Positions 28,824 through 44,764 of a stretch of DNA of 64,000 nucleotides are shown here, piece by piece. Each line of letters starts with the position of its first letter. Positions within the stretch are counted from its first letter, which is position 1. This DNA is from Candidatus Omnitrophota bacterium. Lineage in GTDB: Bacteria > Omnitrophota > Gorgyraeia > Gygaellales > Profunditerraquicolaceae. Below the pieces are notes generated by a model that was given only the letters and a program-made list of their open reading frames with translations, ran no database searches and had not been told where the DNA came from. The stretch spans positions 288 through 64,287 of the forward strand of contig JAQUQW010000005.1 of assembly GCA_028716245.1 (NCBI GenBank), read 5' to 3'. The position numbers and the translations under genes are program-made.

Positions 28824-29728
28824 TGAAAATAGAATTAAGAAGAAAATTCCCCCTGATTATCGCGGTTGTCTGCGGGATCGCGGCGATAATCTTGCTCAAC
28901 CTTTATCTTAAGAGCAGAGAAGGTGAAATCTGGGATAAGATGAGGCAAGCGGAACAAAAGGCCCAGGCTGCCAAACCAAAAGTGACCATGGGGGTTGTAC
29001 TGGTGGCAAAAAGAGAGATTCCGGTGCAGACGCCGATTACCGCCGAAGACCTTACATTTAGACAGGTGCCAATGGAATATATCCAGCCCGGCGCAGTTAC
29101 TTCTCTTGAACAGGTTATCGGCCAGATTGCTTCCGGTCCGATCGGCGCCGAAGAGCAGATACTGAGCACAAAACTTCTTCCTCCCGGAAATATCGGAAAG
29201 ACCCTTTCGGAAATTACGCCTGAAGGCAAGAGAGCAGTAACTGTTTCCGTGGATAACCTTGTCAGTATTGCCGGTTTACTAAAACCCGGAGATTACGTGG
29301 ATATATTCGCGCTCATTGCTTTGCCTAAGAAGACCATATCGCAGACAAAAGAAGAATCAGATCCGCGCTTAATCTCGCTTTTTCAAGGGGTGCAAGTATT
29401 GGCAATGGGAAATGAGCTGGTTGCTTCAAAATCTAAAACAAAAGAAAATGCGGCTACCGCGGCGCAAACCGTTACTTTCGCGCTTACGCCTCAAGAAGCG
29501 GTGTTACTTTCTTTTGTCCAGGAACACGGCAAGATTAAATTAGCCCTGCGTTCCTCGCAGGATACCAAGGTTGAGGCGGTTGCACCGGCTGATTGGGATA
29601 CCCTATTAAATTATTTATCCACCAGCCAGGGGGAGAAAGCCGGTTTGGAAGGCCAGCCGGTAGTTGAGATCTACCGCGGCTTGCAAAAAGAAATTGTTCC
29701 CCTATCAGCATCGAACAAACAAAAATGA
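28823..29728 (+). CDS. cpaB: Flp pilus assembly protein CpaB/RcpC (SAF + CpaB domains)
   Basis: N-terminal TM, SAF-like domain (REIPVQTPITAEDL...), CpaB C-domain; 1 nt overlap with the upstream gene. Confidence 0.75.
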   Translation: MKIELRRKFPLIIAVVCGIAAIILLNLYLKSREGEIWDKMRQAEQKAQAAKPKVTMGVVLVAKREIPVQTPITAEDLTFRQVPMEYIQPGAVTSLEQVIGQIASGPIGAEEQILSTKLLPPGNIGKTLSEITPEGKRAVTVSVDNLVSIAGLLKPGDYVDIFALIALPKKTISQTKEESDPRLISLFQGVQVLAMGNELVASKSKTKENAATAAQTVTFALTPQEAVLLSFVQEHGKIKLALRSSQDTKVEAVAPADWDTLLNYLSTSQGEKAGLEGQPVVEIYRGLQKEIVPLSASNKQK

Positions 29729-31377
29729 GGAATATTCTTAAACTCACATTTCTACTGTTTTTTATTTTGTCCGCGGCGCAGGCCTATCCGGAAGAGTTGA
29801 AAGTTATAACTTTATACGTCGCAGAAGGCAAGGTTGTGTCCGTAAATACTCCTACCCGGGTGGTGATCAATAATCCTAATGTTATTGACGTTACTTCAGT
29901 AAGCAAGGAGGATATGTTGCTGGCGGCCAAAAGTCCAGGCACAACCAATTTAGTCTGGTGGGATGCCGCCGGGCAGCATTCATTGCGGGTAGAGGTTTTT
30001 CAGGAAGATATGAATTTGGTTAAAAAAAGGATAGATACCTTATTAAAAGAATTGAACCTTCCCGGGGTTTTTACGCGAGGCTCGGATAGCGAAGGCAAGG
30101 TTTTACTTTTAGGAAGCGTAAAGCAGCCTGCGGATTTAGAGCGTATCGATACGGCATTAAGTTCGCTTAAAGGGAAAACCGCCAATCTTATCCAGCTAAA
30201 GGAAGAAAGGGCGGTAGTAGAGATTAAAGTGCAAGTCCTGGAATTAAATAAAGATGCCACCTCGAGTTTAGGTTTTAGTTTTCCAGGTTCCATCGATATT
30301 ACCGACATCGGCTCGCCAGGACTAGCTGCCGCAGGCACAAGCTGGGGAAAGTTATTTAAGGTATCGAATGTAGGCCGTGGTGCTTTTAATTTGACATTGG
30401 ATGCTTTGGTTCAGGAAGGCAAGGCGCGCATACTTTCTCAGCCCAGGCTTGCTTGCCAAAGCGGCAAGGAAGCTGAGTTGTTAGTCGGCGGAGAAAAGCC
30501 GATATTTAATACCAGTATAGCGGCTACAAGCGGAGCCAGCGGCACAAATATAGAATATAAAGAATTCGGCATTAAATTAAAAATAAAACCCACAATAACC
30601 GAAGATAAACAGATTAAATTGGCATTGAATGTGGAAGTCAGCGACGTGGGCACAGCGGAAACCATCGGTTCAACGGGCGGGAGCACGACTACGACTACGG
30701 CCTTGGCGTATCCTTTAAGCAAACGCAACGCATCCACCCAGCTTTTTGTTAATGACGGCCAGATGATGGCTATCGGCGGGTTGATCAAGCAAAAGACCGA
30801 GGAGGATGTCCGCAAAACTCCTTTCCTGGGGGATGTACCAGTGTTGGGATTATTTTTTAGGAAAAAGTCAACCAAGGTAGGAGGTGGTCAAGGAGAGAGA
30901 GGCGATACAGAGCTGTTGATTACGCTTACCCCTACTATTATAAAAGAACAACCCGTGCTTGCTGAAACAGCTAAGGCCCAGGCGTCCCCTTCAGCCGTCA
31001 ACGTACCTATAACCAGAGAAGGCGCTAAAAGCGCAGAGTCCTTGCCCGCTAAAACTAAAGTACTTTCTCCTGCCGAAATAACCAGCCAGGCGTTGTCCGA
31101 ATACATGCACAAAATTAGCAAACGCATACAGGACAATTTCGTTTATCCTTGGGCAGCCAAACAAGGCAAAATGCAGGGAACGGTAAGATTAGGTTTGCGG
31201 CTTGATTCTATGGGCACGCTCTTAGAGGTTGAGGTTAAACAGTCATCAGGATACAACATATTTGATGAGAACGCAGTGAGTATGGTTAAAAAATTATCTC
31301 CTTATCCTCCGTTTCCTGCACAGCTCAAGCAAAAGGAACTCCGGGTAGATCTCCCTATCGTCTATAAACTGGATTAA
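29725..31377 (+). CDS. cpaC: Tad secretin CpaC/RcpA with C-terminal TonB_C-like domain
   Basis: Signal peptide, BON-like N-domains, and a secretin domain (...FLGDVPVLGLFFR...TELLITLTP...). A ~140 aa C-terminal extension reads YPWAAKQGKMQGTVRLGLRLDSMGTLLEVEVKQSSGYNIFDENAVSMVKKLSPYPPFP, like a TonB C-terminal domain. Confidence 0.75.
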   Translation: MRNILKLTFLLFFILSAAQAYPEELKVITLYVAEGKVVSVNTPTRVVINNPNVIDVTSVSKEDMLLAAKSPGTTNLVWWDAAGQHSLRVEVFQEDMNLVKKRIDTLLKELNLPGVFTRGSDSEGKVLLLGSVKQPADLERIDTALSSLKGKTANLIQLKEERAVVEIKVQVLELNKDATSSLGFSFPGSIDITDIGSPGLAAAGTSWGKLFKVSNVGRGAFNLTLDALVQEGKARILSQPRLACQSGKEAELLVGGEKPIFNTSIAATSGASGTNIEYKEFGIKLKIKPTITEDKQIKLALNVEVSDVGTAETIGSTGGSTTTTTALAYPLSKRNASTQLFVNDGQMMAIGGLIKQKTEEDVRKTPFLGDVPVLGLFFRKKSTKVGGGQGERGDTELLITLTPTIIKEQPVLAETAKAQASPSAVNVPITREGAKSAESLPAKTKVLSPAEITSQALSEYMHKISKRIQDNFVYPWAAKQGKMQGTVRLGLRLDSMGTLLEVEVKQSSGYNIFDENAVSMVKKLSPYPPFPAQLKQKELRVDLPIVYKLD

Positions 31378-31378
31378 T

Positions 31379-33556
31379 ATGGCCCAGATTATTTCTATTT
31401 TTAGCACCAAAGGCGGCGTAGGAAGGACCTTTATTGTCACCAACCTTGCCATTGCCTTAGCGCAAAAAATAACCAAAGGCAAAAAGGTTTTACTTTTTGA
31501 TACTGATTTACAGTTGCCGGGCAATATGGCGATGCTCTTGAATTTAAAGCCAAAAAAGCCCTTGGTTGATCTTATCCCCGAATGGCGTAAAGGTAATTAT
31601 ACGCCCTCCCAGATTGGCGAATATATCCTTCATTATCCCGCCGCAAGTATGGACCTGCTTCCCCTGGTCTTAACTGCCGAAGAAAGGCCGTATGTAGATG
31701 AAAAATTTATCTCTTGCGTTCTGAGCGATTTGATTAAGGAATACGAATTTATCGTTTGCGATAGCGGCAGGACATTTAATAAAGCGCTTGTGGCTATCCT
31801 TGAACAGACAAATTTGATTTTGCTGGCGATTAATCCCGACATCCTTTCGGTTTATCAGGCAAAAGAAGATATCAAGACACTGCAGTCACTATATTTTCCC
31901 GCCAAGATGATGCGTGTGGTTTTAAACCGCGCGGAAAGCACCGGCGCGGTATCCTGGCAGGAGGTAAGGGCGGCTTTGCCCTGCGATATCATCAGCCGCA
32001 TCCCGTCGGAGGGCAGGGTTGTGGGCTCGGCCTTAAACCGCGGCATACCCGTTGTGTTGGATAGTCCGCGCTCGCGCGTAAGTATTGTGCTGGATAAATT
32101 AGCTGAAGATTTAATCGCTCACCCGGATTTTTTTATCTCCCATAAAAAATTGGAAGCAGCTGTTCCGGCTGTGGAAAAAAAGAAAGAATTTTTAGAAGAG
32201 GATACCTCTTCTTTGGAATCCCTTTCCTTGGGCGGCCGTAAGCCCATTGAGAGAAAACTTACCGGCGAAGAGAAAATAGACGACTTAAAACAACGGGTGC
32301 ACAAGCGCGTTATTCAGGAATTGGATCTACGGCGCCTGGATCGCGTAGCCGGGGACCTGACAAAAATCGCGGATTTACGCCAGAAGACAATGAAAGCGAT
32401 TAATATCGCGCTAACTGATGAAGCCGGGGCGCTTATTTCTTCGCGGGAGGAGCGGGAGCGCCTGATCAAGGAGATCAGTGACGAAATTTTGGGCCTGGGC
32501 CCTTTGGAAGATTTGATCAATGACCCCGAAATTACCGATATTTTAGTTAACAATAAGAGCCAAATCTACATCGAAAAGCACGGCAAGTTAGAGTTAGTTT
32601 CCAAGCGTTTCGTATCCAATGATCAGGTGCGCCAGATAATCGAGCGCATTATCGCGCCCTTAGGCAGGAGGGTGGATGAGTCGGTGCCGATGGTTGACGG
32701 CCGGCTTTCCGACGGTTCGCGGGTTAACGCGATCATTCCTCCGCTTTCCCTTACCGGGCCGACGCTGACGATCAGGAAATTCAGCCAGGAGCGGCTTAAG
32801 GTTAATGATTTAGAACGGCTGAATGCTTTAAATAATACAATGGGAGAATTTCTTAGAGCCTGCGTTGTCTGCCGCAAGAATATAATTATTTCAGGAGGCA
32901 CCGGCTCAGGAAAAACTACGGTTTTAAATGTGCTCTCCGAGTTTGTTCCCGAAGGAGAAAGGGTGATCACGATTGAAGATGCCGCGGAATTAAAGCTCGA
33001 CCACCAGCACTGGATCCGCCTGGAGTCGCGGCCGCCGAATATTGAAGGGAAAGGGGCGATTTTCGTGCAAGATTTGTTCAGGAATTCTCTGCGCATGCGG
33101 CCTGACCGGATTATCATCGGAGAATGCCGCGGCCAGGAAGCTTTGGATATGCTCCAGGCGATGAACACCGGCCACGACGGCTCGATGACTACCATCCATG
33201 CTAACTCCACCCAAGATGTCTTAGCGCGCCTGGATTCGCTGATCCTGATGAGCGGTATCGAGATTCCCCTGCGGGCAATCCGCGAGATGATTGCCTCAAG
33301 CATCGATATGATCGTCCATACCGCCCGTTTTTCCGACGGCTCAAGAAAGATTACCCAGATAACCGAAATTACCGGGATGGCCGACGAGATGCATATCGGA
33401 TTAAACGATATATTTATTTTTGAGCAGTCCGGTATTGACAGCCAGGGAAAAGTCCAGGGAGAGTTTAAAGCCACAGGAATATTGCCGACCTTTCTAGATG
33501 ACCTACGCAAAAGTGGCAGTATCTTTTCAGAAGAAGTATTCAAAAAGAAAGAGTAA
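31379..33556 (+). CDS. fused CpaE/TadZ-like (MinD/ParA-fold) + CpaF/TadA secretion ATPase
   Basis: N-terminal KGGVGRTF deviant Walker A (CpaE-like). The C-terminal T2SSE ATPase has GGTGSGKTT, a DxxE box, an RPDRIIIGECRGQEA Asp box, and an NTGHDGSMTTIHANS His box. One 725 aa ORF. Confidence 0.8.
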   Translation: MAQIISIFSTKGGVGRTFIVTNLAIALAQKITKGKKVLLFDTDLQLPGNMAMLLNLKPKKPLVDLIPEWRKGNYTPSQIGEYILHYPAASMDLLPLVLTAEERPYVDEKFISCVLSDLIKEYEFIVCDSGRTFNKALVAILEQTNLILLAINPDILSVYQAKEDIKTLQSLYFPAKMMRVVLNRAESTGAVSWQEVRAALPCDIISRIPSEGRVVGSALNRGIPVVLDSPRSRVSIVLDKLAEDLIAHPDFFISHKKLEAAVPAVEKKKEFLEEDTSSLESLSLGGRKPIERKLTGEEKIDDLKQRVHKRVIQELDLRRLDRVAGDLTKIADLRQKTMKAINIALTDEAGALISSREERERLIKEISDEILGLGPLEDLINDPEITDILVNNKSQIYIEKHGKLELVSKRFVSNDQVRQIIERIIAPLGRRVDESVPMVDGRLSDGSRVNAIIPPLSLTGPTLTIRKFSQERLKVNDLERLNALNNTMGEFLRACVVCRKNIIISGGTGSGKTTVLNVLSEFVPEGERVITIEDAAELKLDHQHWIRLESRPPNIEGKGAIFVQDLFRNSLRMRPDRIIIGECRGQEALDMLQAMNTGHDGSMTTIHANSTQDVLARLDSLILMSGIEIPLRAIREMIASSIDMIVHTARFSDGSRKITQITEITGMADEMHIGLNDIFIFEQSGIDSQGKVQGEFKATGILPTFLDDLRKSGSIFSEEVFKKKE

Positions 33557-35859
33557 TGAATTTCTTCCGCAAAAACCAACCACTAAACCAACGCAGCCAG
33601 ATTGCCGTGATTATCACCTTTGTCATCGCGGTGATTTTTTTATTTATCGCGGTATTTATAAACCTCGCCAAAGTAAGTCAGACTAAGACTACAACCAGCA
33701 CTGCCGCGGATAAGGCCGCTTTGAGTTTAGCTTCGCAGCTGGGCAGTATGAGCCATTATTATAAGGATAAAGTGTTAAAGCTAAGCGGTTCGTCTTGTGC
33801 CACTCCTCCCTGCCAGGCATGTGACACTGATTGGTTGAGTTTAGCGACAATAATAGTGGCAATAGTTGGAGTTGCAGTTGGTATTTTTATTCCTCCAGTA
33901 GCACTTGGTGCCGCCGTTATAATGGGTGCGATTGCTATCAATTCGGCATTGCTCGGTGGAATAAACACGAAATTTAAGGAAATGACTGGATACAATGCTT
34001 CTCGAGAGAGTACATTATTCCAGGCCCTTCGCGATACCCAAAGCGATGATGTTGAGTTAAAAAGTATGGGGGCAGGCCTTTTTCGTGATGCGGAAACCGG
34101 CAAGGTTTACGATTTAAGTACTATTCCTGAAATGCGCAATGAAAAGAAAGTAAGCAGATTTGCCGCTTGGTATTATTTTTTGAGGCTTCCTTTGGTAGGC
34201 GACGAGGCGATGAAAAGAAGTTTAGATATATTTTTATTGGAGGGGATAAGGAGGTTTGTTGATGTGGATGAGTGGGATTCCAACCAATGGAAGATTAATA
34301 AGTTATCTTATGTGATTGGACCAGGTAATGGAAGCAGCAATTACGATGTGACCTGCTCCGCATCCTGCCCGGATTGGGTAAAAACCCCCGCGCAAGGACT
34401 GTTAAGAATGGTAAGGATGGATACTTCGGATAATGTCTACGGTGGATTTTTAAAGGATAAACTTCTTAGCTTATTACAGCGGTTAGAATGCGCATATGGT
34501 TTAACCTTTTGTAGCTCATTAGGGATATGCAGCAGTCTGACAGTAAGTTGCGGCGACGTAAATAACCTGATTGAAGATTTGAGAGAGTTTTTGTTAAGAA
34601 GCAAAGAGGTGTTAAACCTGCCGGTTTCTAAGCGGCTCGAACAATTAACACAATGGTTTCCGCTATGGTATAATTTTAAATATCATTGCGATCATCGATG
34701 GTTTAAAGACAGCTCGGGTAACTGTATCGATCCAAATAGCGACCCCAACCTAAATGACGACTATAAATACGATATTTATTTGCGCTTGACCCGCGACCAG
34801 ATTAAAATTAAGAGTTGGATTGCCGAGCTGCAAACTTTAAACAATAATAGAATTGTTCCGGATATAGCAAAGAAACACGGGGAATGTACTTGGGGCAGAG
34901 GTGCTTCAGTTAGTAGTACCTGTTATACGCAATACGGTTGCAGCACTTCTGAATGCGGTTGTCACTGTTGCGGCAGCGATTGCAGCGATTGTTGCTGTAA
35001 TACCTGTTGTTATCCGTCTTCTAGAAAATCACCCTGTGCTTGGGAAGGAACATATTATACTTGCGATCAGAATCCGCCCGTCTGTAGGAGTGGAGATTTA
35101 TATGGCGCAGTCCCAGGCTGGTGCGGTTCTCGCGCAGACCATGCAGGGTGCCATAGTAACTGTGGATGTGATGTCCAAAATTTTGATACTACTACTGGTG
35201 GAGCAAAAGATTTCCAAGGCCAGTTATCCTGGCGTCCTCCTATGGCGGGAAATTCGGATGGCACTGATAAGCCGACTGAAGTTGATCAGGCAATCAGAAT
35301 CCTGGGTGCCTTAAATGATGATCTCGCCAGGATAAAGACGTCTATTGGTGATTTAGCGGATAGCGTAGCGGCTAATCTGTCCAACACAGACGCTAAAAGA
35401 AATGAGATTATTTATGCCTGGAAGGATAAGCCCAAGGCGGATGGCAGCCAGCAATTTTCTCACTTTGTCAAAGTAAAGATTACTGGTTACCCTGAGAAAT
35501 TACCCAATATTACTGAAAGTACGGGATGGGGGTGGGTAGGAATTATTCCTGCTCCACAGAAGTGCCGCACGTTAAACGATTACCAGGGTGATTTTACGAT
35601 AAGCACCTGGCGTTATGACCAGGATCAGCCAACGGATATAGCCGGATGGAAACTGAAGCGCAGGAAAACACCCTCTACCGCTGAATTTGTCCCTGCACAA
35701 TTAGAAAAAATAGTAGCGGATGTCCAGGATAACGCTAAGATAGATTCAACCCAAAGTTATGTTGCTTCGATTTTAGACTACTCGATTGCCAGTTGCAGCC
35801 AAGCGCATTACGGACCGGAAAAAAGCGACATTTATATAACCGGAACTCAATGTGAATAA
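33556..35859 (+). CDS. TadG/TadE-like large pilus-associated protein with cysteine-rich region
   Basis: N-terminal TM followed by AADKAALSLASQ (Tad PF13400-like). 767 aa. A Cys cluster reads CGCHCCGSDCSDCCCNTCCYP. Confidence 0.5.
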   Translation: MNFFRKNQPLNQRSQIAVIITFVIAVIFLFIAVFINLAKVSQTKTTTSTAADKAALSLASQLGSMSHYYKDKVLKLSGSSCATPPCQACDTDWLSLATIIVAIVGVAVGIFIPPVALGAAVIMGAIAINSALLGGINTKFKEMTGYNASRESTLFQALRDTQSDDVELKSMGAGLFRDAETGKVYDLSTIPEMRNEKKVSRFAAWYYFLRLPLVGDEAMKRSLDIFLLEGIRRFVDVDEWDSNQWKINKLSYVIGPGNGSSNYDVTCSASCPDWVKTPAQGLLRMVRMDTSDNVYGGFLKDKLLSLLQRLECAYGLTFCSSLGICSSLTVSCGDVNNLIEDLREFLLRSKEVLNLPVSKRLEQLTQWFPLWYNFKYHCDHRWFKDSSGNCIDPNSDPNLNDDYKYDIYLRLTRDQIKIKSWIAELQTLNNNRIVPDIAKKHGECTWGRGASVSSTCYTQYGCSTSECGCHCCGSDCSDCCCNTCCYPSSRKSPCAWEGTYYTCDQNPPVCRSGDLYGAVPGWCGSRADHAGCHSNCGCDVQNFDTTTGGAKDFQGQLSWRPPMAGNSDGTDKPTEVDQAIRILGALNDDLARIKTSIGDLADSVAANLSNTDAKRNEIIYAWKDKPKADGSQQFSHFVKVKITGYPEKLPNITESTGWGWVGIIPAPQKCRTLNDYQGDFTISTWRYDQDQPTDIAGWKLKRRKTPSTAEFVPAQLEKIVADVQDNAKIDSTQSYVASILDYSIASCSQAHYGPEKSDIYITGTQCE

Positions 35860-38430
35860 CAAAAAACTTTTTTTCTTCAGTCTTTTATATTTTTTTTTCT
35901 GTTCGGCGCCGGCCTAGCGCAAGCAAAATCCGCAATTGATATCCTGGTTTTTTCCCCCCACCCCGACGATGAAACCCTCGCCTGCGGCGGCTCCATTAGC
36001 AAGGCAATCAAAGAAAATAAAAAGGTAAAAGTTATCTTTATGACTAACGGTGACGCGTATCCGGAGTCCGCGTCGATTTGGTTAAAAAAGAAGCCGCAAG
36101 AGCTTACTGCCGAAGATTATATTGTTTTTGGCAAGGAGCGCAAAAAAGAAGCGTTGCGTGCAATAAAAATACTTGGGTTGAAGCAAAAAGACGCGATTTT
36201 TTTGAATTATCCGGATAATGGGTTGTTTTCTCTTTGGACGCAAGAAGAATTTCCGGGTAAAAAAAAATATAGTAAAAGAAACCTGCTCAACGATATTAAG
36301 AATATCCTAAGCGATTACCAGCCCAAAATAATTTATCTTCCCCATCCCGCGGATAATCATAAGGACCATCAGGCAACAACACTTTTCGTCTATCTTGCTT
36401 TAAAAGAATTAAAGGATGCAGATAAGAATAATAGCTGGATAGATTCTTTAGAGCCCTATTATTATCTTGTTCACCGGGCTCTCAACGATAATCTTTTTCA
36501 GGTACCTGCGCGCCGCCAAGACATTGTTGATTTCAAGCAGCAAAAGTTAAAAGCGTTGAACCAATACCACACTCAATTAACCAGCGATAAGGAATTTTTG
36601 GAGGGTTTTATTAAGGATAGTGAATTATTCTGGGACGTGCCAAAAGATAAGCCAGTATATCTTAATAATCTTGAGACGGAATGGCAAGGAATAGCCGAAT
36701 ATATGCGGAGCAAGGGTTATAATGTGAATTTTGCTCCCGTAGTAGATGTCGCGGATAATATTGAAAACATGAACAATCCTTTGGTGAAAAAACAACGGAT
36801 GTATTCGCAAGACCCGCGAGTTGTCAGCGAAGTGGCTTGCGCGATAATCAGCGGAATGATTAAAGGCAAGATAATCCCGGTGCTAAAACATTTTCCCGGC
36901 TTAGGCCGAGTCGATGATGATACCCATCTTATGTTGCCTAAAGCAACCGTATCCGATACGGAACTTTATAAAAGAGATCTTTTTCCTTTTAGCGAACTCA
37001 TTAAGAAATATCCCGGTATATGGATAATGATTGACCATGCGATTTATCCCGGTTTAAGTGATAAGCCTGCTTCGTTATCTTATGAAATTCAAACTAAACT
37101 TTTGCGCGAAAAGTTGGGTTTTAAAGGAATAATTGTCGCGGATGAGCTATTAGGAATGCGGGCAATCAAGGAATATGCTTTAAGAGAGGCAATTAGAGAG
37201 CCTGTTATCGGCGAGATTGTAGCCAGGGCATTTGAAGCCGGAACGGATATTGCCGTAATTTATCCGCCTTGCGGTAATACCGAAAGAGTTGTTTCTGATA
37301 TAATTAAAAACGTAAGGCAAGCGGTAAAGGAGGGCCGGCTCGATGAAAAAAGCATCAATGAATCAGTTATCCGGATACTCAAAGAAAAAGAAAAGATTTT
37401 TGGCAGGCGTCTGGTTTATTTAGTAAAAAAAATGCCGCTTGCCGAAAAAATCGGGCAGAAGCTCGTATTCGATTATCATAACGATATAGGCGTATTTAAT
37501 AAATATAATATCGGCGGGGTTTATCTGCACGACCATAATGCCATAGATAAAACACAAAAAGATACTAAAATACCGCTATTTATAATCGGCCAACATGAAG
37601 GGGGCATAATTAGCCAGTATACGGTTAATAGCCGCAGTGCTTACGTGATTGGTAAAGAGTTCGAGGTGCTGGTAAAAAAAGATAAGGCGGATGTCGGGGG
37701 GAATATGCGCCTGCTCTGTTTAGCCGCGCATCCCGACGATGAAGACGGCGAAGCGCTGGTTTATTTCCGCGAAAAATTGAATTACCAAACTTACCTGCTT
37801 TTGGCTACGCGGGGAGAAGGGGGTAGGGATAAAATAAGTTCCGCTCTTGGCGATGAATTGGGGATTTTGCGCACCAAAGAGGAGGAGAAAGCCGCTTCGA
37901 TTTTAGGGGTAAGAAAGGTTTATTATTTAGGCAAGACAGATTTCGGTTACACCCTCTCAGTCGATAAGTCTCTTGAAAAATGGGGTAAAAAAGATACCCT
38001 GGAAAAATTAGTTTATTTTATCCGCCTGATCAGGCCGCAGATAATCATTACCAAACACAATGACTCGGATCCCAAAGAGCACGGTCAGCATCAAGCTTTG
38101 GTTATGCTTGCCAAAGAGGCGTTTGATTTAGCCGGCGACCCAAAAGCTTATCCCGGGATGATCAGGGATGGGTTATTGCCCTGGCAGCCGCTTAAGTTTT
38201 ATCAACGCTCAACAAACAATGAAGCGGATGCGGCAGATAACCAACTTAAAATTAATTCCGCAGAATATATCCCGGCGGAACGGAAAACAATTCATCAGAT
38301 CGCTTTTAAGTCATTGACCCAGCACCGCAGCCAGAGTAATTGGGAGCATTTAAGGACAAATATCCCAAAGCTAATCCGCTATCAATTGGTTAAATCCGGA
38401 AGCTGTTCAGAGAAAGAAAATTATTTTTAA
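35852..38430 (+). CDS. three-domain exopolysaccharide-modifying enzyme: PIG-L/LmbE deacetylase, GH3 (NagZ-like) hydrolase, second PIG-L deacetylase; 5' end frameshifted in a T9 tract
   Basis: A GTG at 35852 encodes the signal peptide MNNKKLFFFSLLYFFF. A single-T gap in the run 35890-35898 shifts into the long frame (...LFGAGLAQA...VFSPHPDDE...). The intact ORF is listed from 36040. GH3 motif KHFPGLGRVDDDTH; second deacetylase AAHPDDEDGE. Confidence 0.7.
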
Positions 38431-38443: not shown

Positions 38444-38995
38444 ATGAATATAGGAAAATATAATTTGCGCAAGGCAAGTATAAATATTTTTGCAGCGTTA
38501 CTTTTTATTACCGCCAATGCTTATGCCCAAGACCCGGAAAAGGAAATGTTCGATAAAGGCAATGACTATTTTAAAAGTAAGCTCTACGATAGGGCGATTA
38601 GCGCGTTTAATACCGCCATTCAGATTAAGCCGGGTTATAGCGCCGCGTATTATCACCGGGGGCGTGCCTACGCTGAAAACGGGGACATTGACCAGGCAAT
38701 CTCTGACTACGCCAAGGCAATAGAACTCAACGCTAATTATACAAAGGCATATTATCGGCGTGGCCTTGCCTATGCTAAAAAGGGTGATCTTGATCAGGCA
38801 ATCTCTGACTACGCCAAGGCAATAGAACTGGATCCCAAATTAGCCGGGGCTTATAATAACCGGGCCAGCGCGTATTTTCTAAAGCAGGAATACAATAAAT
38901 GCTGGGAAGATGTCCACAGGTTAGAAGCGTTGGGCGAGAAACCGCATCCTGAATTCCTTGAGCAATTGAAGAAGTTATCCGGCAGGGAAAGGTGA
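38444..38995 (+). CDS. secreted TPR-repeat protein (TadD-like candidate)
   Basis: Signal peptide and at least 4 TPR units; exact internal 35 bp duplication (38693-38727 = 38799-38833). Confidence 0.6.
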   Translation: MNIGKYNLRKASINIFAALLFITANAYAQDPEKEMFDKGNDYFKSKLYDRAISAFNTAIQIKPGYSAAYYHRGRAYAENGDIDQAISDYAKAIELNANYTKAYYRRGLAYAKKGDLDQAISDYAKAIELDPKLAGAYNNRASAYFLKQEYNKCWEDVHRLEALGEKPHPEFLEQLKKLSGRER

Positions 38996-40603
38996 ATTAG
39001 GCGCGGCGGTTTTCCTTACATAGATATTTATTTCTGTGTTGGGGCGTTCATGCAGATTGAGCATCTGCGTAACGGCTAATTTGCGGTGCCATATAAAATT
39101 ATCAAGCCATTTCAAAAAAGATGATTTTCCTTTGAAGGAAGGCATAAGATAGGATGGCGAAGGAAGAATCTGGGGCCTATAGTGGGTAATTTTCAGGTAA
39201 TACTCATTCACGTAGGGCATTATTTTTAGTTCGCTTTCTTTTTGCATCTCAGTTTCCTTATTCTGAAATCTACCCAAGAGAATAATTTCCGGTTTGTACT
39301 TTTCTAATACGGTTATAAGGTAGGCCGGCCGCAGGTTTTTAGTGAATATTCTTTTGGCGGAGATAACCGCTAGTTCAGGCGGGACCGCAATACCGGCATA
39401 AAAAGCAAAAATCGGCATATCGGTGAATATCCAGCGCACGCTTCGGCGATAACCTGACAATAACTCAACTGTTTTGCGTTCTTCCGCCGTCGTTTTATCC
39501 TTCAGGTCCATGAGCATGCCATTATATTTAAAAGGCAATCTTAGCAAGATCAGGATTATCAGGCTTAAGATTAACCAACGCATCCACCTTTTCTTTTTCC
39601 TCACGGCAAAAAAGCATTCGCTAAAACCAATTGCCGCCAGCCAACTCGCCGGGATTGCAAGAAGAAGATAGTAATACTGCCGGACAGGTTTATAATTAAG
39701 CAGGATGGCCAAAGCCGCCGCCAACCATAAGACCGGGAAAAAAGACCGGTATTTTTTTTCTCTGCAGAGAAGGATTATGCCAATCAGGGCAAGCAGAAAA
39801 ATATCCCAGTCCCGGAACAGCACTTTGTTACAGACAGCAAGAAACGTATCTTGATTATATCCGGGGATTAGCCCTTTGCTTGCAGTATAGTGGGGCTTAA
39901 TTAATTGCTGAATTAACATATAAAAATTAAAATGGAAAAATGTTATAATAATGGCAAAGTAAATCATGAAGGAACTCCCGAGCCACAGCGTAACAGGCAA
40001 AAGGGAGTGATTTCTGTCCTTTAAATTTGTTTTTTCGATTTGAGCTATTTCTAATATAATGAGCGGTATGAGAAAAATTGTAATTAACTTGATTTGTAAA
40101 GAAAGCGCCAGAAGAATTCCCGATAACACTAAAAAGTGCTTTAAATAAAATTTTTTATAAAGATGTATAAAATAAACTGAAAGCATCGCCAAGCTCAAAG
40201 CGGGAAGGTCGTTGGCGATCGAAATACTCAAGCGCAGGTAAGTGGCAGATAAAACTAAAAATATAATTGCCACAAGCGCGCAAAAACTTCCGCGCAGGCC
40301 TTTAACGGTTTGATAAAGCGCCCAGAGAAGCATGCCTGAGAAAACAAATATTAAGGTGCGCCCGGAGGCAACCGACTGGCCGAATAATTTAAGCCAAAAG
40401 GAAAGAATAACCGTCAATAAGGGTGGCTGGTCGCTCCAGATTTCTTTATAAAGAGAAAACCCCTTTAGGAAGAGGGAAGATTTCATCAATTCGTTCCCTT
40501 CGTTGGGGATAAATTCAAAGGTTTCTTTAATGGGAGATTTTACGATGAAGAATAGGGCAATTAAAATAATGAAGAAAAAAATGGCGGGTAAAAAACGACG
40601 CAT
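38975..40603 (-). CDS. GT-C fold glycosyltransferase, ArnT/PMT (GT83/GT39)-like
   Basis: 542 aa, ~12 TM; N-terminal loop ...IPNEGNELMKS (DE-like motif) typical of polyprenyl-P-sugar-dependent GT-C enzymes. Confidence 0.6.
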   Translation of the reverse strand: MRRFLPAIFFFIILIALFFIVKSPIKETFEFIPNEGNELMKSSLFLKGFSLYKEIWSDQPPLLTVILSFWLKLFGQSVASGRTLIFVFSGMLLWALYQTVKGLRGSFCALVAIIFLVLSATYLRLSISIANDLPALSLAMLSVYFIHLYKKFYLKHFLVLSGILLALSLQIKLITIFLIPLIILEIAQIEKTNLKDRNHSLLPVTLWLGSSFMIYFAIIITFFHFNFYMLIQQLIKPHYTASKGLIPGYNQDTFLAVCNKVLFRDWDIFLLALIGIILLCREKKYRSFFPVLWLAAALAILLNYKPVRQYYYLLLAIPASWLAAIGFSECFFAVRKKKRWMRWLILSLIILILLRLPFKYNGMLMDLKDKTTAEERKTVELLSGYRRSVRWIFTDMPIFAFYAGIAVPPELAVISAKRIFTKNLRPAYLITVLEKYKPEIILLGRFQNKETEMQKESELKIMPYVNEYYLKITHYRPQILPSPSYLMPSFKGKSSFLKWLDNFIWHRKLAVTQMLNLHERPNTEINIYVRKTAAPNSPFPAG

Positions 40604-40650
40604 AATGAAATTAATTTTATCCTATATTTATTGTTAGCGCAAGTCCAATA

Positions 40651-41724
40651 ATGAATTACTTAAGATTTCTTTTTATTCTGTCAAAAAACCGGTTGGGGAT
40701 TATTCCTTATCCGTCCCTGGTTACTTTTATCGTTACCTGGAGATGCAACCAGCGGTGTTTAATGTGCGGCATATGGAAAAAGGGGAAAAAATATGAAATG
40801 GCATTAGATGAGATTGGCGGCATATTCAGCCGGTTAAGGCCGTTGGATGCTGTGCGGATAACCGGAGGAGAGCCATTTTTAAGAGACGACCTTACGCAAA
40901 TAATTGACCTTATCGATAAATATACCAAACCCCCGGTAATTCATATTACAACCAACGGCACGTTGACAAAAAGGGTCCTGGATTTTATAAAAAATGTTAA
41001 AAATCCGCAAAATATCCATATAAAAATATCAATTGACGCGCTGAAAGAAGAGCACAACCGGATAAGGGCGGATAATGAATCATACGATAAAGCGATGTTA
41101 ACCTTAACCGAATTATCGGGTTTAAAACAAAAATACGGGTTTTATCTGGGGGTCAATCAAACAATAGTATCACAGGAGTGTTTCAATGATTATCAGGGCT
41201 TAAGGGGGATTTGCAATAAATACCATGTAAAATTATATCCGGTATTAGCCTATTCCAGTCCGCCGCTTTATGCGGCGGATGATTATTCTGACAAAATTCC
41301 GGAAGGATGTAAAACAAGCGTATTGGGGGGTTTTTCTCAACAGCAGATTATAGAGATGTTCAACATATTTGAAAAAGACCCGTCAGGATGGGATAATTTT
41401 GCTGAAAAGATAACCGCCAAATATTATCTTAAAAAAATACGCGAGCATTTATTGCGCGGGAAAAACCATACTCAACCAGAATGCGTTGCTTTGCGCAGCC
41501 ACTTACGTATACTTCCCAATGGCGACGTCCCGGTGTGCCTGTATAATCCCGCAATCGCAGGAAATTTGTTGGCAGAGTTGAATTTTAAAAAATTCTGGTT
41601 CAAGAATAAAAATATTGCAAAATACCGGCAGGATATCCGCAGGTGCCCAGGCTGTTGGGCAAAGTGCGAAGTCATTCCTAACGGGATATATAGCGGTGAT
41701 ATTATCAGAGCCATTTTTAGTTGA
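40651..41724 (+). CDS. radical SAM protein (CxxxCxxC) with Cys-rich C-terminal (SPASM-like) region
   Basis: WRCNQRCLMCGIW cluster near the N-terminus; C-terminal CPGCWAKCE. Confidence 0.7.
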   Translation: MNYLRFLFILSKNRLGIIPYPSLVTFIVTWRCNQRCLMCGIWKKGKKYEMALDEIGGIFSRLRPLDAVRITGGEPFLRDDLTQIIDLIDKYTKPPVIHITTNGTLTKRVLDFIKNVKNPQNIHIKISIDALKEEHNRIRADNESYDKAMLTLTELSGLKQKYGFYLGVNQTIVSQECFNDYQGLRGICNKYHVKLYPVLAYSSPPLYAADDYSDKIPEGCKTSVLGGFSQQQIIEMFNIFEKDPSGWDNFAEKITAKYYLKKIREHLLRGKNHTQPECVALRSHLRILPNGDVPVCLYNPAIAGNLLAELNFKKFWFKNKNIAKYRQDIRRCPGCWAKCEVIPNGIYSGDIIRAIFS

Positions 41725-41739
41725 GTAAAAGGGAGTAAG

Positions 41740-42477
41740 GTGCTTAAATTTTCGGTCATCATCTCGGTATACAATGAAGAACAGGCAGCCGCCCAGCTCT
41801 ACTATTCTTTAAAGAAAGTTATGGATGGATTAGGGCAAGCTTATGAAACTATTTTTGTAAATGACGGTTCAACCGACAAGAGCCTGGATATGCTAAAGAG
41901 TATTAACTTAAGCCCGGCGAATTTAGTCATTGTCGACTTAGATAAACATAGAGGACAATCTACGGCTTTGCAGGCGGGGTTTGATATTTCCCGGGGAAAG
42001 TTTATCATTACCATGGATGGCGACCTGCAGAATGATCCTGAGGATATCCCCCGTATGCTGGATAAGCTGCAAGAGGGCTATGATCTTGTTTGTGGCTGGA
42101 GGCATAACCGAAAAGATCCCCGGATTAAGGTAATTATTTCTAATCTTGTTTCTTTTTTTCTTCGGCTTATGGTAAAGCAGAATATCCATGATTTTGGCTG
42201 TCCCATGAGAATCTTAAAAAAAGAAGCCTTAAAGGATGTCTATTTGTCTAAAGGAATGCATAGATTTTTTACTTTACTAATGTTTAAATTGGGATATAAG
42301 ATTGGAGAAGTTGAAGTGAATCATCGTCCACGAAGATTTGGAAAGTCAAAATACAATATACACAACAGATTATTTGAGTGCCTATTTGTTTTTTTACGCA
42401 TTTCATTATATGATATCCGTAACTTAAGGGAATACCATGAACCGGATTATAAGATTAAGGGGGTAATTAGAAAATGA
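41740..42477 (+). CDS. GT2 polyprenyl-phosphate glycosyltransferase (DPM1/ArnC/GtrB-like)
   Basis: SVIISVYNEE, DGSTDKS, and TMDGDLQNDPEDIP motifs; 245 aa. Confidence 0.8.
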   Translation: MLKFSVIISVYNEEQAAAQLYYSLKKVMDGLGQAYETIFVNDGSTDKSLDMLKSINLSPANLVIVDLDKHRGQSTALQAGFDISRGKFIITMDGDLQNDPEDIPRMLDKLQEGYDLVCGWRHNRKDPRIKVIISNLVSFFLRLMVKQNIHDFGCPMRILKKEALKDVYLSKGMHRFFTLLMFKLGYKIGEVEVNHRPRRFGKSKYNIHNRLFECLFVFLRISLYDIRNLREYHEPDYKIKGVIRK

Positions 42478-42815
42478 AGATTATTAATTTAAGCAAAAAC
42501 GCGGTCTTAGCAGATAAGGCAAGGATGGCGGATACCTTCTGGAAGCGGCTGGTAGGGTTGCTTAACCGCAATTCACTGGAAAAAGGAGAAGCACTCGTTC
42601 TAAAACCGGCAAACAGTATACATACATTTTTTATGGGTTTTCCCATAGATGTCTTATTTTTAGACAAAAATGGAAAGGTTATTGGTTTGTTTCCTGTGTT
42701 TAGGCCTTTTCACATTACCTCTGTTTATTTTGGCGCTTCTCTAGCTATTGAACTGCCCGCGGATACCCTCCGGCTTACTCAAACAAAATTAGCGGATAGC
42801 ATTAAAATCGAATAA
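42474..42815 (+). CDS. DUF192 (COG1430) family protein
   Basis: 113 aa; ...RLVGLLNRNSLEKGEALVLKP.NSIHTFFMGFPIDVLFLD...; 4 nt overlap with the upstream GT2. Confidence 0.5.
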   Translation: MKIINLSKNAVLADKARMADTFWKRLVGLLNRNSLEKGEALVLKPANSIHTFFMGFPIDVLFLDKNGKVIGLFPVFRPFHITSVYFGASLAIELPADTLRLTQTKLADSIKIE

Positions 42816-43505: not shown

Positions 43506-43526
43506 TTAGAAGGAGGGAGGTTAAAG

Positions 43527-44763: not shown

Positions 44764-44764
44764 A

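What the first reader, a model, noticed from the sequence alone, without database searches (positions are those of the whole stretch)
35852..38430. PIG-L deacetylase / GH3 hydrolase / PIG-L deacetylase tri-domain secreted enzyme adjacent to the Tad machinery
Two LmbE/PIG-L-type zinc deacetylase domains (SPHPDDE and AAHPDDEDGE, each with downstream H..DH) flank a NagZ-like GH3 domain (KHFPGLGRVDDDTH). By analogy with bifunctional exopolysaccharide-processing enzymes such as PgaB or PelA (deacetylase plus hydrolase), this looks like a processing enzyme for a GlcNAc-containing polymer or glycan. Its architecture is different from those and, to my knowledge, undescribed.
Basis: partly seen in the sequence, partly recalled or inferred. 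Interest (0 to 1): 0.7.

Follow-up and report, generated by a model that had tools for sequence, protein, structure and literature searches.

The report
Tad-locus GlcNAc enzyme, permuted, frameshifted
An uncultured Omnitrophota bacterium carries, inside its Tad pilus gene cluster, an exported enzyme with two GlcNAc deacetylase domains around a rearranged GlcNAc-cleaving domain, and making it needs a conserved reading-frame slip at a run of nine T's.

Summary
The three domains are real. Pfam gives PIG-L twice (E 4.5e-51) and Glyco_hydro_3 (E 9.4e-45). The catalytic residues of all three are intact, and the AlphaFold2 model is confident (pLDDT 92).

- **Frame break.** The gene is not one open frame from 35852. 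The GTG and the first half of the signal peptide lie one frame away from the enzyme. The frames meet at a T9 run (35890-35898). This TTATA-T9 junction is invariant in seven independently assembled lineages. The gene is under purifying selection (dN/dS about 0.17). Programmed recoding, either transcriptional slippage or a -1 frameshift, is therefore much more likely than a sequencing error or a pseudogene.
- **Permuted GH3 domain.** The GH3 barrel is circularly permuted. The canonical first ~100 residues follow the rest of the domain (hhalign 98.6%). An otherwise invariant substrate-binding Asp is Gln.
- **Location.** The gene sits inside the Tad locus, not beside it. It is translationally coupled to a fast-diverging TadG-like gene. 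This arrangement holds in about a dozen Omnitrophota lineages.

The family is small (roughly 70-100 clusters) and is labelled almost entirely Omnitrophota. I found no description of it in the searched literature.

The domain chemistry is well supported: exo-β-GlcNAc removal plus de-N-acetylation outside the cytoplasm. The substrate is inferred. Candidates are a host or own cell-wall glycan, or a glycan built by the neighbouring GT2/GT-C pair. The PgaB/PelA analogy holds only loosely.

The parts
35852..35898 (+). 5' segment in the zero frame: GTG start overlapping the stop of the TadG-like gene (GTGAATAA). It encodes MNNKKLFFFSLLYFFF, the n-region and first half of the h-region of a signal peptide.
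   Evidence: This frame stays open and encodes M-x-(N/K)-K-K plus hydrophobic residues in 7 loci. The enzyme frame has stop codons in this stretch in L001 and L002.
35890..35898 (+). T9 slippery run, part of the invariant TTATATTTTTTTTT from 35885. A -1 shift, or one extra U in the mRNA, joins the start segment to the enzyme frame.
   Evidence: invariant 14-nt block in 7 loci; one of only three runs of 9 or more bases in 64 kb; the motif occurs once per locus and is absent from the 83 other loci.
35915..35917 (+). Zero-frame stop (TAG). It would end a 21-aa peptide if no slip occurs.
   Evidence: The zero-frame tail after T9 is not conserved between loci, whereas the -1 frame is.
35899..35925 (+). 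Rest of the signal peptide in the enzyme frame: LFGAGLAQA, with an A-x-A cleavage site before KSA.
   Evidence: Homologues with uninterrupted genes have equivalent signal peptides.
35935..36636 (+). PIG-L/LmbE (CE14-type) deacetylase domain 1: HPDDE at 35959-35973, HKDH at 36358-36369.
36652..37410 (+). GH3 NagZ-type catalytic core, equivalent to Pfam profile positions 107-314. It carries KHFPGLGRVDDDTH (36886-36927, Asp-His dyad D357/H359) and the nucleophile D431 (37141-37143).
37420..37668 (+). Permuted GH3 segment, homologous to the canonical N-terminus of GH3. QHEGG (37591-37605) replaces DQEGG.
   Evidence: hhalign 98.6%, E 1.3e-15, to aa 6-88 of canonical GH3. A de-permuted construct extends the Pfam match to profile position 53 and adds 10 bits. 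Three β-strands here complete the barrel in the model. Asp is invariant 44/44 in canonical relatives, against Gln 63/72 here.
37705..38430 (+). PIG-L/LmbE deacetylase domain 2: HPDDE at 37729-37743, HGQH at 38080-38091. Stop TAA at 38428-38430.
33556..35859 (+). Upstream partner: a 767-aa Cys-rich TadG-like protein. Its stop overlaps the enzyme's GTG.
   Evidence: Weak Pfam Tad hit, E 8.5e-4, below cutoff. It sits immediately upstream of the enzyme gene in 11 of the 14 loci where the upstream side is held. It diverges as fast as the enzyme does.
27918..33556 (+). Tad core upstream: PpiC-type rotamase, RcpC/CpaB, secretin fused to TonB_C, and a TadZ-CpaF fusion ATPase.
   Evidence: The same order is seen in L001, L005, L011, L012, L013 and L016.
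38444..42815 (.). Downstream cassette: TPR protein (38444-38995, +), PMT_2 GT-C glycosyltransferase (38975-40603, -), radical SAM/SPASM (40651-41724, +), ArnC/PgfS-like GT2 (41740-42477, +), DUF192 (42474-42815, +).
   Evidence: PMT_2 and/or GT2 follow the enzyme gene in 10 of 13 informative loci.
43362..49468 (+). Remainder of the Tad locus: Flp-type pilins (43362-43505, 43527-43694), pseudopilin-like ORFs, TadB (47736-48581), TadC (48515-49468).

Best explanation
The gene encodes a Sec-exported, three-active-site GlcNAc-processing enzyme that is an accessory component of the Omnitrophota Tad pilus locus.

**Shown**
- The domain order is: signal peptide, CE14-type zinc deacetylase (BshB/TT1542-like), circularly permuted NagZ-type GH3 exo-β-N-acetylglucosaminidase, then a second and distantly related CE14 deacetylase (LnmX/diacetylchitobiose-deacetylase-like).
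- Catalytic residues are intact in all three domains.
- The gene follows and overlaps a fast-diverging TadG-like gene within the Tad operon in many lineages.
- In this clade the start plus half of the signal peptide are one frame away from the enzyme, across an invariant T9 run.

**Inferred**
- Full-length protein is made only when RNA polymerase adds one U at the T9 run. This would work as in Shigella mxiE. Alternatively the ribosome slips -1 on U UUU UUU. Either way the run sets the enzyme dose relative to the TadG-like protein.
- After export the enzyme acts at the envelope or the cell-contact zone on glycans ending in β-GlcNAc. The GH3 pocket removes terminal GlcNAc, and the two deacetylases convert GlcNAc to GlcN on two different substrates or positions.
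- My preferred substrate is a GlcNAc-bearing cell-wall or surface glycan met during Tad-mediated attachment: peptidoglycan-type fragments or surface glycans of the host or prey.
- In that reading the TadG-like protein and the enzyme form one exchangeable host-interaction cassette.
For: - **Domains and residues:**
- **Permutation:**. Only about 27 of 1.84 billion representative proteins span the permuted junction in one stretch. Only about 236 of about 340 NagZ residues align structurally.
- **NagZ motif and dyad definition:** PMC4974736.
- **Tad embedding and 4-8 nt gene overlap:**
- **Cassette behaviour:** in L011 and L013 the Tad core proteins are 76-94% identical to the window's (most 84-94%), but the TadG-like protein is 50-57% and the enzyme 47-62%.
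- **Recoding:**
  - Invariant TTATA-T9 in 7 loci.
  - No canonical start in the enzyme frame.
  - dN/dS 0.17-0.18, and pN much lower than pS in the stretch upstream of the first ATG.
  - No general homopolymer problem in the window.
  - Six other lineages have uninterrupted genes.
  - 9T/9A runs and mxiE are documented slippage precedents (PMC1088944).
- **Predator precedent for deacetylating prey peptidoglycan:** PMC4876506 and PMC7511926.
- **Omnitrophota Tad systems linked to predation or parasitism:** PMC10066038.
Against: - No activity, localisation or expression data exist. The substrate is inferred from domain families and neighbours only.
- A NagZ-type pocket is exo-acting, so it cannot by itself breach a wall.
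- A Sec signal peptide takes the protein only to the periplasm. Nothing shows it crosses the outer membrane to reach a host.
- The divergence shared with the TadG-like gene could be simple hitch-hiking in a recombined block.
- Ten of 13 informative loci have a GT-C/GT2 pair next door, which fits a self-made substrate equally well.
- The barrel permutation rests on profile alignment, secondary-structure order and partial structural alignments. I could not superpose coordinates.
- The Asp-to-Gln change in the sugar-binding loop could alter or weaken GlcNAc binding.
- The recoding mechanism (RNA polymerase or ribosome) is not resolved.
Confidence: 0.5

Rival explanations
1. Self-glycan editing. 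The ArnC/PgfS-like GT2 makes a polyprenyl-phosphate-HexNAc. The PMT_2 GT-C enzyme transfers it in the periplasm to a pilus-associated protein (the TadG-like protein or pilins) or to an envelope lipid. The tri-domain enzyme then de-N-acetylates the sugar to a cationic GlcN, on the lipid carrier or on the product, and trims unmodified β-GlcNAc. This follows the logic of ArnC-ArnD-ArnT and of PIG-L acting on GlcNAc-PI.
For: - PMT_2 and GT2 genes follow the enzyme gene in 10 of 13 informative loci.
- The best NCBIfam matches of the GT2 are ArnC (7e-42) and PgfS (2e-33), both below their cutoffs.
- From established knowledge, the founding PIG-L activity is on a lipid-linked GlcNAc.
Against: - L005, L012 and L013 keep the enzyme in the Tad operon without PMT_2 or GT2 in the flanks.
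- The PMT_2 gene is usually on the opposite strand.
- No flippase was identified.
- The Caulobacter Tad pilus shows no glycan density (PMC10710030).
- The role of an exo-GlcNAcase in such a pathway is unclear.
Confidence: 0.25
2. Catabolic salvage. This would be a periplasmic enzyme that breaks down chitooligosaccharides or muropeptides to GlcN, GlcNAc and acetate for nutrition, like the archaeal Dac/GlmA and Thermotoga CbsA/NagA pathways. Its place in the Tad locus would be incidental or reflect co-regulation only.
For: - The nearest solved relatives of the GH3 part include Thermotoga CbsA/NagA.
- The nearest of domain 2 include the Pyrococcus and Thermococcus diacetylchitobiose deacetylases.
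- The C-terminal extension of long-form homologues weakly resembles a domain of exo-β-D-glucosaminidase GlmA (E 0.008).
Against: - Start/stop overlap with the TadG-like gene and conserved position inside the Tad operon hold across proteins only 39-51% identical.
- No sugar transporter, kinase or deaminase genes are nearby.
- Rapid divergence and modular gain and loss of domains are unusual for a housekeeping catabolic enzyme.
Confidence: 0.12
3. Own-wall remodelling. The enzyme would locally modify the bacterium's own peptidoglycan so that the Tad machine can be assembled through it. This is by analogy with the dedicated wall enzymes of flagella and of type III and IV secretion systems.
For: - The gene is conserved inside the machine's operon.
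- The closest structures, B. subtilis NagZ and M. tuberculosis LpqI, act on peptidoglycan fragments.
Against: - Known machine-associated wall enzymes are lytic transglycosylases or endopeptidases that open gaps. An exo-GlcNAcase plus deacetylases would not.
- A housekeeping assembly factor would be expected to evolve with the core, not 30-45 identity points faster.
Confidence: 0.08
4. The frame break is an assembly error, an inactivating mutation or DNA-level phase variation. Alternatively, translation starts at a non-canonical codon (the ATA just before the T run, or the CTG chosen by NCBI), so that no recoding is needed.
For: - Homopolymers are error-prone and are classic phase-variation sites.
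- NCBI annotated a CTG start that gives 828 aa without a signal peptide.
Against: - Exactly T9 is found in 7 independent assemblies from different samples, with proteins as low as 47% identical.
- Other runs of 8-9 bases in the window break no ORF.
- dN/dS is 0.17, with no further frame breaks.
- The GTG-frame peptide is a conserved signal-peptide start, while the enzyme frame carries stop codons there in L001 and L002.
- Phase variation would predict a mixture of T9 and T10 among lineages.
Confidence: 0.05

Closest known systems
NagZ-type GH3 β-N-acetylglucosaminidases (B. subtilis NagZ/YbbD 4gyj, M. tuberculosis LpqI 6gfv, Thermotoga CbsA/NagA 5bza/3wo8)
   Same: - Same KHFPG-x-G-x4-D-(S/T)-H motif with the Asp-His dyad.
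- Same Asp nucleophile, Arg and Lys-His substrate residues.
   Different: - The barrel is circularly permuted: canonical residues ~1-100 follow residues ~100-330.
- The invariant Asp of the D-x-E-x-G loop is Gln.
- The domain is sandwiched between two deacetylase domains.
- There is no GH3 C-terminal sandwich domain.
CE14 / PIG-L / LmbE zinc deacetylases (BshB1 6p2t, BC1534 2ixd, TT1542 1uan, MshB 1q7t, LnmX 5bmo, diacetylchitobiose deacetylase 3we7/4xm1)
   Same: - HPDDE metal and base motif in both domains.
- The downstream zinc-binding His is present.
   Different: - There are two copies, only 24% identical to each other, fused to a glycosidase and exported. The characterised relatives are single-domain and, from my own knowledge, mostly cytoplasmic.
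- Domain 2 has HGQH instead of H-x-D-H.
Archaeal chitin pathway: diacetylchitobiose deacetylase (Dac) plus exo-β-D-glucosaminidase GlmA
   Same: It combines a PIG-L-type deacetylase with an exo-glycosidase to process GlcNAc oligomers stepwise. Domain 2 resembles Dac.
   Different: - There the enzymes are separate cytoplasmic proteins, and the glycosidase is GH35-type and specific for GlcN.
- Here there is one exported polypeptide with a GH3 NagZ-type pocket, encoded in a pilus operon.
PgaB / PelA bifunctional exopolysaccharide-modifying enzymes
   Same: A periplasmic protein combining de-N-acetylase and glycoside hydrolase activities on a GlcNAc-type glycan.
   Different: - Those use a CE4 deacetylase and an endo-acting GH153/GH166 domain.
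- They are encoded with a synthase and exporter.
- None of these features is present here.
GlyA1 subfamily of GH3 with permuted domain topology (PMC5104943)
   Same: A GH3 enzyme whose sequence order departs from the canonical one.
   Different: In GlyA1 whole domains are reordered, with the sandwich domain before an intact barrel. Here the barrel itself is cut and rejoined.
Programmed transcriptional slippage at 9T/9A runs (Shigella mxiE, Thermus dnaX, IS elements; PMC1088944)
   Same: A run of nine T at the junction of two overlapping frames. One extra nucleotide fuses them into the long product. It lies in an operon for an envelope-spanning machine, as mxiE does.
   Different: - Slippage has not been demonstrated here.
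- The site lies inside a signal peptide.
- A -1 ribosomal slip on U UUU UUU would give the same protein.
ArnC-ArnD-ArnT and related aminosugar modification systems
   Same: An ArnC-like GT2 and a PMT_2/ArnT-type GT-C lie next to a de-N-acylase.
   Different: - From my own knowledge, ArnD belongs to the CE4-type deacetylase superfamily and acts before flipping.
- Here the deacylase is PIG-L-type, exported and fused to a glycosidase.
- The trio is absent from some loci.

Membership tests
GH3, NagZ-type β-N-acetylglucosaminidase | Significant match to the GH3 N-terminal catalytic domain (PF00933) | tested here: met
   E 9.4e-45, 153.8 bits against a cutoff of 27, but only profile positions 107-314.
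GH3, NagZ-type β-N-acetylglucosaminidase | KH(F/I)PG(H/L)G-x4-D(S/T)H motif with the Asp-His acid/base dyad | tested here: met
   KHFPGLGRVDDDTH at aa 346-359. K, H and H359 are invariant, and D357 is D in 65 and N in 8 of 73. Motif definition from PMC4974736.
GH3, NagZ-type β-N-acetylglucosaminidase | Catalytic Asp nucleophile after the seventh β-strand | tested here: met
   D431 lies at the position of the conserved S-D of CbsA/NagA in the pairwise alignments and is invariant in 73/73.
GH3, NagZ-type β-N-acetylglucosaminidase | Canonical N-to-C order of the (β/α)8 barrel | tested here: not met
   The N-terminal ~100 residues are relocated to aa 524-606. Only about 236 of about 340 residues of single-domain NagZ align.
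GH3, NagZ-type β-N-acetylglucosaminidase | Invariant Asp of the D-x-E-x-G sugar-binding loop | tested here: not met
   Asp in 44/44 canonical relatives. Gln in the target and in 63/72 family members, never Asp.
GH3, NagZ-type β-N-acetylglucosaminidase | Hydrolysis (or phosphorolysis) of terminal β-GlcNAc | not testable with these tools
   Needs an enzyme assay.
PIG-L / LmbE (CE14) zinc deacetylase | Significant PF02585 match | tested here: met
   E 4.5e-51, in two stretches.
PIG-L / LmbE (CE14) zinc deacetylase | (A/P)HPDD(E) motif supplying the His and Asp metal ligands and the Asp general base | tested here: met
   - Domain 1: H37, D39, D40.
- Domain 2: H627, D629, D630.
- Domain 2 motif invariant in 63/63.
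- Domain 1 degenerate in a minority of members, for example P0025.
PIG-L / LmbE (CE14) zinc deacetylase | Downstream H-x-D-H with the third metal ligand | tested here: inconclusive
   Domain 1 has the canonical D-N-H-K-D-H, aligned to BshB1, TT1542 and BC1534. Domain 2 keeps both His residues but has Gln for Asp (HGQH).
PIG-L / LmbE (CE14) zinc deacetylase | LmbE-like α/β fold | tested here: met
   [not shown]
PgaB / PelA-type exopolysaccharide-modifying enzymes | CE4 (NodB) deacetylase domain | tested here: not met
   No CE4/Polysacc_deac hit. The deacetylases are PIG-L type.
PgaB / PelA-type exopolysaccharide-modifying enzymes | Encoded with a polysaccharide synthase and export genes | tested here: not met
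   The neighbours are Tad genes, a GT-C, a small ArnC-like GT2 and a radical SAM enzyme. No processive synthase or exporter was found.
Programmed transcriptional slippage / frameshift site | Slippery run of nine or more A or T at the overlap of two frames that together encode one protein | tested here: met
   T9 at 35890-35898. The signal peptide is split across the two frames.
Programmed transcriptional slippage / frameshift site | Site and both coding parts conserved among diverged orthologues | tested here: met
   Invariant TTATA-T9 in 7 loci. dN/dS 0.17.
Programmed transcriptional slippage / frameshift site | Heterogeneous mRNA (U10), or a frameshifted protein, observed | not testable with these tools
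   Needs RNA-seq reads or protein data.
Tad (Flp) pilus locus component | Conserved position within the Tad operon across lineages | tested here: met
   It lies directly after the TadZ-CpaF gene or the TadG-like gene in all 14 loci whose upstream side is held (L001-L006, L009-L013, L016 and the window); L014 and L015 lack upstream flank but carry PMT_2/GT2 or PpiC downstream. The distant P0073 (L007/L008) lies at a contig end, so its upstream side is unknown.
Tad (Flp) pilus locus component | Homology to a known Tad protein | tested here: not met
   No Tad family matches the enzyme. I found no equivalent in the searched literature.

The most novel reading that the evidence does not exclude
The Omnitrophota Tad-like apparatus and this cassette form a host-attack module.
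- The exported enzyme and the variable TadG-like protein would be presented or secreted by the pilus machine, much as a type II secretion system pushes folded periplasmic enzymes through its secretin.
- There they would strip and de-N-acetylate GlcNAc on the host or prey wall.
- The permuted GH3 barrel with Gln in place of the invariant Asp would have a new sugar specificity.
- The T9 run would be a genuine programmed slippage switch that meters the enzyme relative to the adhesin.
Probability: 0.15. Interest if true: 0.85.

Novelty: new variant of a known kind. Interest (0 to 1): 0.62.

Why it matters
- **Omnitrophota biology.** Omnitrophota are widespread, uncultured, mostly ultra-small bacteria thought to live as predators or parasites. 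Their Tad pili are the main genomic clue to this (PMC10066038). An enzyme conserved inside that operon, coupled to its most variable gene, is a concrete candidate for what happens at the contact site. It can be expressed and assayed without culturing the organism.
- **Enzymology.** This appears to be the first GH3 catalytic barrel that is itself circularly permuted. It also carries a changed sugar-binding residue and sits between two different CE14 deacetylases. It is a natural test of barrel plasticity and possibly of a new specificity.
- **Gene expression and annotation.** A T9 run conserved in seven lineages, splitting a signal peptide between two frames, is a clean candidate for programmed recoding in an uncultured phylum. 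It also explains why public annotations truncate this protein or strip its signal peptide (796 or 828 aa instead of 859).

Tried and rejected
- **Single-ORF reading from 35852:** rejected by three-frame translation.
- **Start at ATG 36040 (the mechanical ORF):** rejected. It removes the HPDDE motif of domain 1, yet that stretch is under purifying selection.
- **Sequencing error or pseudogene:** rejected.
- **Downstream RNA structure as a frameshift stimulator:** none is conserved. MFE is -5 to -12.6 kcal/mol over 70 nt, with different folds in each locus.
- **Permuted segment alone against Pfam:** no significant hit. A family profile was needed.
- **afdb50 fold search:** the library was unavailable.
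- **Literature searches** for the architecture, for LmbE with Tad pili, for CE14 with GH3, and for GH3 circular permutation. They found only the GlyA1 domain-order permutation and nothing on this family.
- **Flp pilin glycosylation as support for the self-glycan idea:** the Caulobacter Tad pilus structure shows none.
- **Accessory domains of long-form homologues:**
  - The C-terminal extension gives only a weak hit (E 0.008) to the middle domain of GlmA and GH42-type enzymes.
  - The ~160-aa insert is mostly helical with no match.
  - Both are absent from the window's protein.
- **NCBIfam:** no equivalog-level match for the enzyme, the TadG-like protein or the PMT_2 protein.

Full report
**1. 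What is at the coordinates**

The mechanical ORF list gives 36040-38430 (+, 796 aa). The open frame actually extends back to 35860, directly after the TAA stop of the upstream 767-aa gene.
- SPHPDDE, with HPDDE at 35959-35973.
- KHFPGLGRVDDDTH at 36886-36927.
- AAHPDDEDGE, with HPDDE at 37729-37743.

The first HPDDE lies upstream of the first ATG/GTG/TTG in that frame. That frame reads VNNKKLFFFSLLYFFFCSAPA and stops at TAG 35915-35917. Adding one T to the T9 run at 35890-35898 joins the two frames. The result is a textbook Sec signal peptide, MNNKKLFFFSLLYFFF-LFGAGLAQA|KSA, and an 859-aa protein. NCBI annotated the same gene as an 828-aa 'PIG-L family deacetylase' from a CTG start, without a signal peptide. 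The contig is labelled Candidatus Omnitrophica (P0001).

**2. The frame break is conserved, not an error**

I fetched the gene from independent assemblies: JGI 3300009538 (L001), two Logan runs (L002, L003) and three GTDB MAGs (L011, L013, L016). All seven loci, including the window, share the same arrangement:
- A GTG overlaps the stop of the upstream gene (GTGAnTAA in six of the seven; in L016 the GTG lies about 20 nt before that stop).
- A conserved M-x-(N/K)-K-K-plus-hydrophobic peptide ends in ...LYFF(F).
- An invariant TTATA-T9 block follows.
- A zero-frame stop comes about 18 nt later.
- The rest of the signal peptide and the enzyme lie in the -1 frame.

The 14-nt block is invariant, while the flanks average 79% column identity. 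The enzymes of these loci are as little as 47-62% identical to the window's. In L001 and L002 the enzyme frame has a stop codon upstream of the run, so it cannot supply the start. The zero-frame tail after the run is not conserved, but the -1 frame is.

Further evidence points the same way:
- The window has only three homopolymers of 9 or more bases, and no other run of 8-9 breaks an ORF.
- Among the window, L001 and L002, dN/dS is 0.17-0.18 with dS 0.32-0.55.
- The stretch between the run and the first ATG also shows pN much lower than pS.
- Six more distant lineages have an ordinary uninterrupted start and signal peptide, with no T run.
- No conserved RNA structure follows the run.

Runs of 9 T or A are the documented length for bacterial transcriptional slippage. 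Shigella mxiE is made by inserting one extra U at such a run (PMC1088944). A -1 ribosomal slip on U UUU UUU would give the same protein. I conclude that this is programmed recoding, mechanism unresolved, specific to one clade of the family.

**3. Domains, residues, fold**

On the reconstructed protein, Pfam gives PIG-L (E 4.5e-51, two stretches) and Glyco_hydro_3 (E 9.4e-45).

GH3 part:
- Its closest solved sequences are NagZ-type β-N-acetylglucosaminidases: Thermotoga CbsA/NagA, B. subtilis YbbD and M. tuberculosis LpqI.
- The motif KH(F/I)PG(H/L)G-x4-D(S/T)H, which marks the Asp-His dyad of NagZ enzymes (PMC4974736), is present.
- K346, H347, H359 and the nucleophile D431 are invariant in 73 family members.

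Deacetylase domains:
- Domain 1 aligns to BshB1, TT1542 and BC1534, including D-x-H-x-D-H.
- Domain 2 aligns to LnmX, archaeal diacetylchitobiose deacetylases and MshB. It keeps HPDDE (63/63) and both His residues of HGQH, with Gln for the usual Asp.
- The two domains are only 24% identical to each other. They come from different PIG-L subfamilies and probably differ in substrate.
- Domain 1 is degenerate in a minority of homologues, but not in the window's protein.

**4. The GH3 barrel is circularly permuted**

- The Pfam match covers only profile positions 107-314 of 316, in the target and in all homologues tested.
- The sequence that follows (aa 524-606: MPLAEKIGQKLVFD...GGVY...PLFIIGQHEGG) looks like a canonical GH3 N-terminus.
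- Moving it in front of the core extends the Pfam match to profile position 53 and raises the score by about 10 bits.
- A profile of this segment from 72 family members aligns to residues 6-88 of canonical GH3 proteins, with hhalign probability 98.6% and E 1.3e-15.
- In the model this segment is confident and contributes three β-strands. Without them the barrel would have only five.
- Searching 1.84 billion representative proteins with the junction (aa 440-606) found only about 27 that match across it in one stretch. Nearly all carry PIG-L domains. Ordinary GH3 proteins match in two out-of-order pieces.
- The Asp of the D-x-E-x-G loop is invariant in 44/44 of the closest canonical relatives. 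In the permuted family it is Gln in 63/72 and never Asp. From memory of NagZ structures, this Asp binds the 4- and 6-hydroxyls of the -1 sugar, so the subsite may be altered.
- The only published 'permuted' GH3 I found, GlyA1, has reordered whole domains around an intact barrel (PMC5104943).
- I could not superpose coordinates, so the three-dimensional claim is strongly supported but not proven.

**5. The family**

About 73 clusters at 90% identity share the PIG-L plus GH3 combination. The modular plan is: signal peptide, PIG-L 1, GH3 core, GH3 permuted piece, an optional ~160-aa helical insert, PIG-L 2, and an optional ~250-aa C-terminal domain. The window's protein is the minimal form.

Among one genome per GTDB species, only six loci carry the family. 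Four are labelled Omnitrophota and two are 'uncultured Planctomycetales/Planctomycetia' MAGs.

The C-terminal domain of long forms gives only a weak hit (E 0.008) to the middle domain of exo-β-D-glucosaminidase GlmA and GH42-type enzymes.

**6. Genomic context**

The gene lies inside a Tad-like locus. The order is:
- PpiC rotamase
- RcpC
- secretin fused to TonB_C
- TadZ-CpaF fusion ATPase
- TadG-like 767-aa Cys-rich protein
- the enzyme
- TPR protein
- PMT_2 GT-C glycosyltransferase (opposite strand)
- radical SAM/SPASM
- ArnC/PgfS-like GT2
- DUF192
- Flp-type pilins and pseudopilin-like ORFs
- TadB and TadC

In all 14 loci whose upstream side is held, the enzyme gene directly follows the TadG-like gene or the ATPase gene, usually with a 4-8 nt overlap. 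This holds down to 39% protein identity. L014 and L015 have no upstream flank but carry PMT_2/GT2 or PpiC downstream, and the distant P0073 sits at a contig end. PMT_2 and/or GT2 follow in 10 of 13 informative loci, but are absent from the flanks of L005, L012 and L013.

In L011 and L013 the core Tad proteins are 76-94% identical to the window's, most of them 84-94%. The TadG-like protein is only 50-57% identical and the enzyme 47-62%. The enzyme also switches between short and insert-containing forms. The two genes therefore behave as a fast-evolving or exchangeable cassette within a conserved machine.

The main Omnitrophota papers discuss Tad loci in the context of predation or parasitism, but they do not mention this enzyme.

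**7. Interpretation**

Well supported:
- It is an extracytoplasmic enzyme with one exo-β-N-acetylglucosaminidase site and two distinct GlcNAc de-N-acetylase sites.
- It is dedicated to the Tad system of Omnitrophota.
- It is co-expressed with the TadG-like protein.
- In this clade it is gated by recoding at T9.

Inferred: the substrate. I favour GlcNAc-bearing cell-wall or surface glycans met at the pilus-mediated contact with a host or prey. My reasons:
- The enzyme stays in the operon even where the GT-C/GT2 pair is missing.
- It co-diversifies with the putative adhesin.
- Predators such as Bdellovibrio are known to deacetylate prey peptidoglycan (PMC4876506, PMC7511926).

The main rival is editing of a glycan installed by the adjacent GT2/GT-C pair (ArnC/ArnD/ArnT-like logic). 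Catabolic salvage and remodelling of the bacterium's own wall are less likely.

**8. Verdict**

This is a real, conserved and undescribed variant built from known domain families. It has three unusual features: the tri-domain order with a permuted barrel, integration into a pilus operon, and a conserved slippery-run recoding site. Function beyond the domain chemistry remains hypothesis.

Noticed in passing
window 52208-64000 (+): A giant open reading frame of at least 3931 codons starts near 52208 and runs off the end of the window. It has a Peptidase_C39-like domain near its N-terminus (E 5.5e-7). A similar giant C39-containing ORF follows TadC in L005.
   Followed up: partly
window 33556-38430 compared with L011 and L013: The TadG-like gene and the enzyme gene form a divergent island (47-62% identity) between Tad core genes that are 76-94% identical. 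PMT_2, radical SAM and GT2 are present in some of these near-identical loci and absent in others. This suggests cassette exchange or diversifying selection.
   Followed up: partly
window 29725-33556 (+): Two unusual fusions in the Tad core: a secretin with a C-terminal TonB_C domain (29725-31377), and a single 725-aa protein joining a TadZ-like CbiA/ParA ATPase to the CpaF/TadA T2SSE ATPase (31379-33556). Both fusions recur in all related loci.
   Followed up: partly
window 21419-25026 (-): A FIST-domain protein, a histidine kinase and a response regulator with a GGDEF domain lie divergently upstream of the Tad locus. The same trio sits upstream of the Tad loci L005 and L006, which suggests c-di-GMP control of the pilus.
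   Followed up: no
window 40651-41724 (+) and 33556-35859 (+): A radical SAM/SPASM maturase-type enzyme lies in the cassette with the TadG-like protein. That protein has an extremely Cys-rich stretch (for example CGCHCCGSDCSDCCCNTCC). This could be a maturase-substrate relationship. It was not examined.
   Followed up: no
window 36259-36267 (+): A second slippery-length run (A9, encoding Lys-Lys-Lys) lies in frame inside the enzyme gene. It is not conserved in L001 (P0002 reads DKKRY there). Slippage here would truncate the protein.
   Followed up: partly
window 43362-44071 (+): The small pilin-like ORFs give weak hits to Flp/Fap pilin and also to the archaeal Class III signal peptide model. 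All are below the curated cutoffs.
   Followed up: no
P0126, P0127, P0130: A few proteins outside the PIG-L family seem to carry the same permuted GH3 (profile from about position 84-134 onward, followed by the relocated N-terminal piece) without a recognisable PIG-L domain. The permutation may therefore predate or outlive the fusion.
   Followed up: partly
long-form homologues, e.g. P0043 aa 960-1184: The ~250-aa C-terminal domain of long-form family members weakly resembles (E 0.008) the glutamine-amidotransferase-like middle domain of Thermococcus exo-β-D-glucosaminidase GlmA and GH42-type galactosidases. It is absent from the window's protein.
   Followed up: partly
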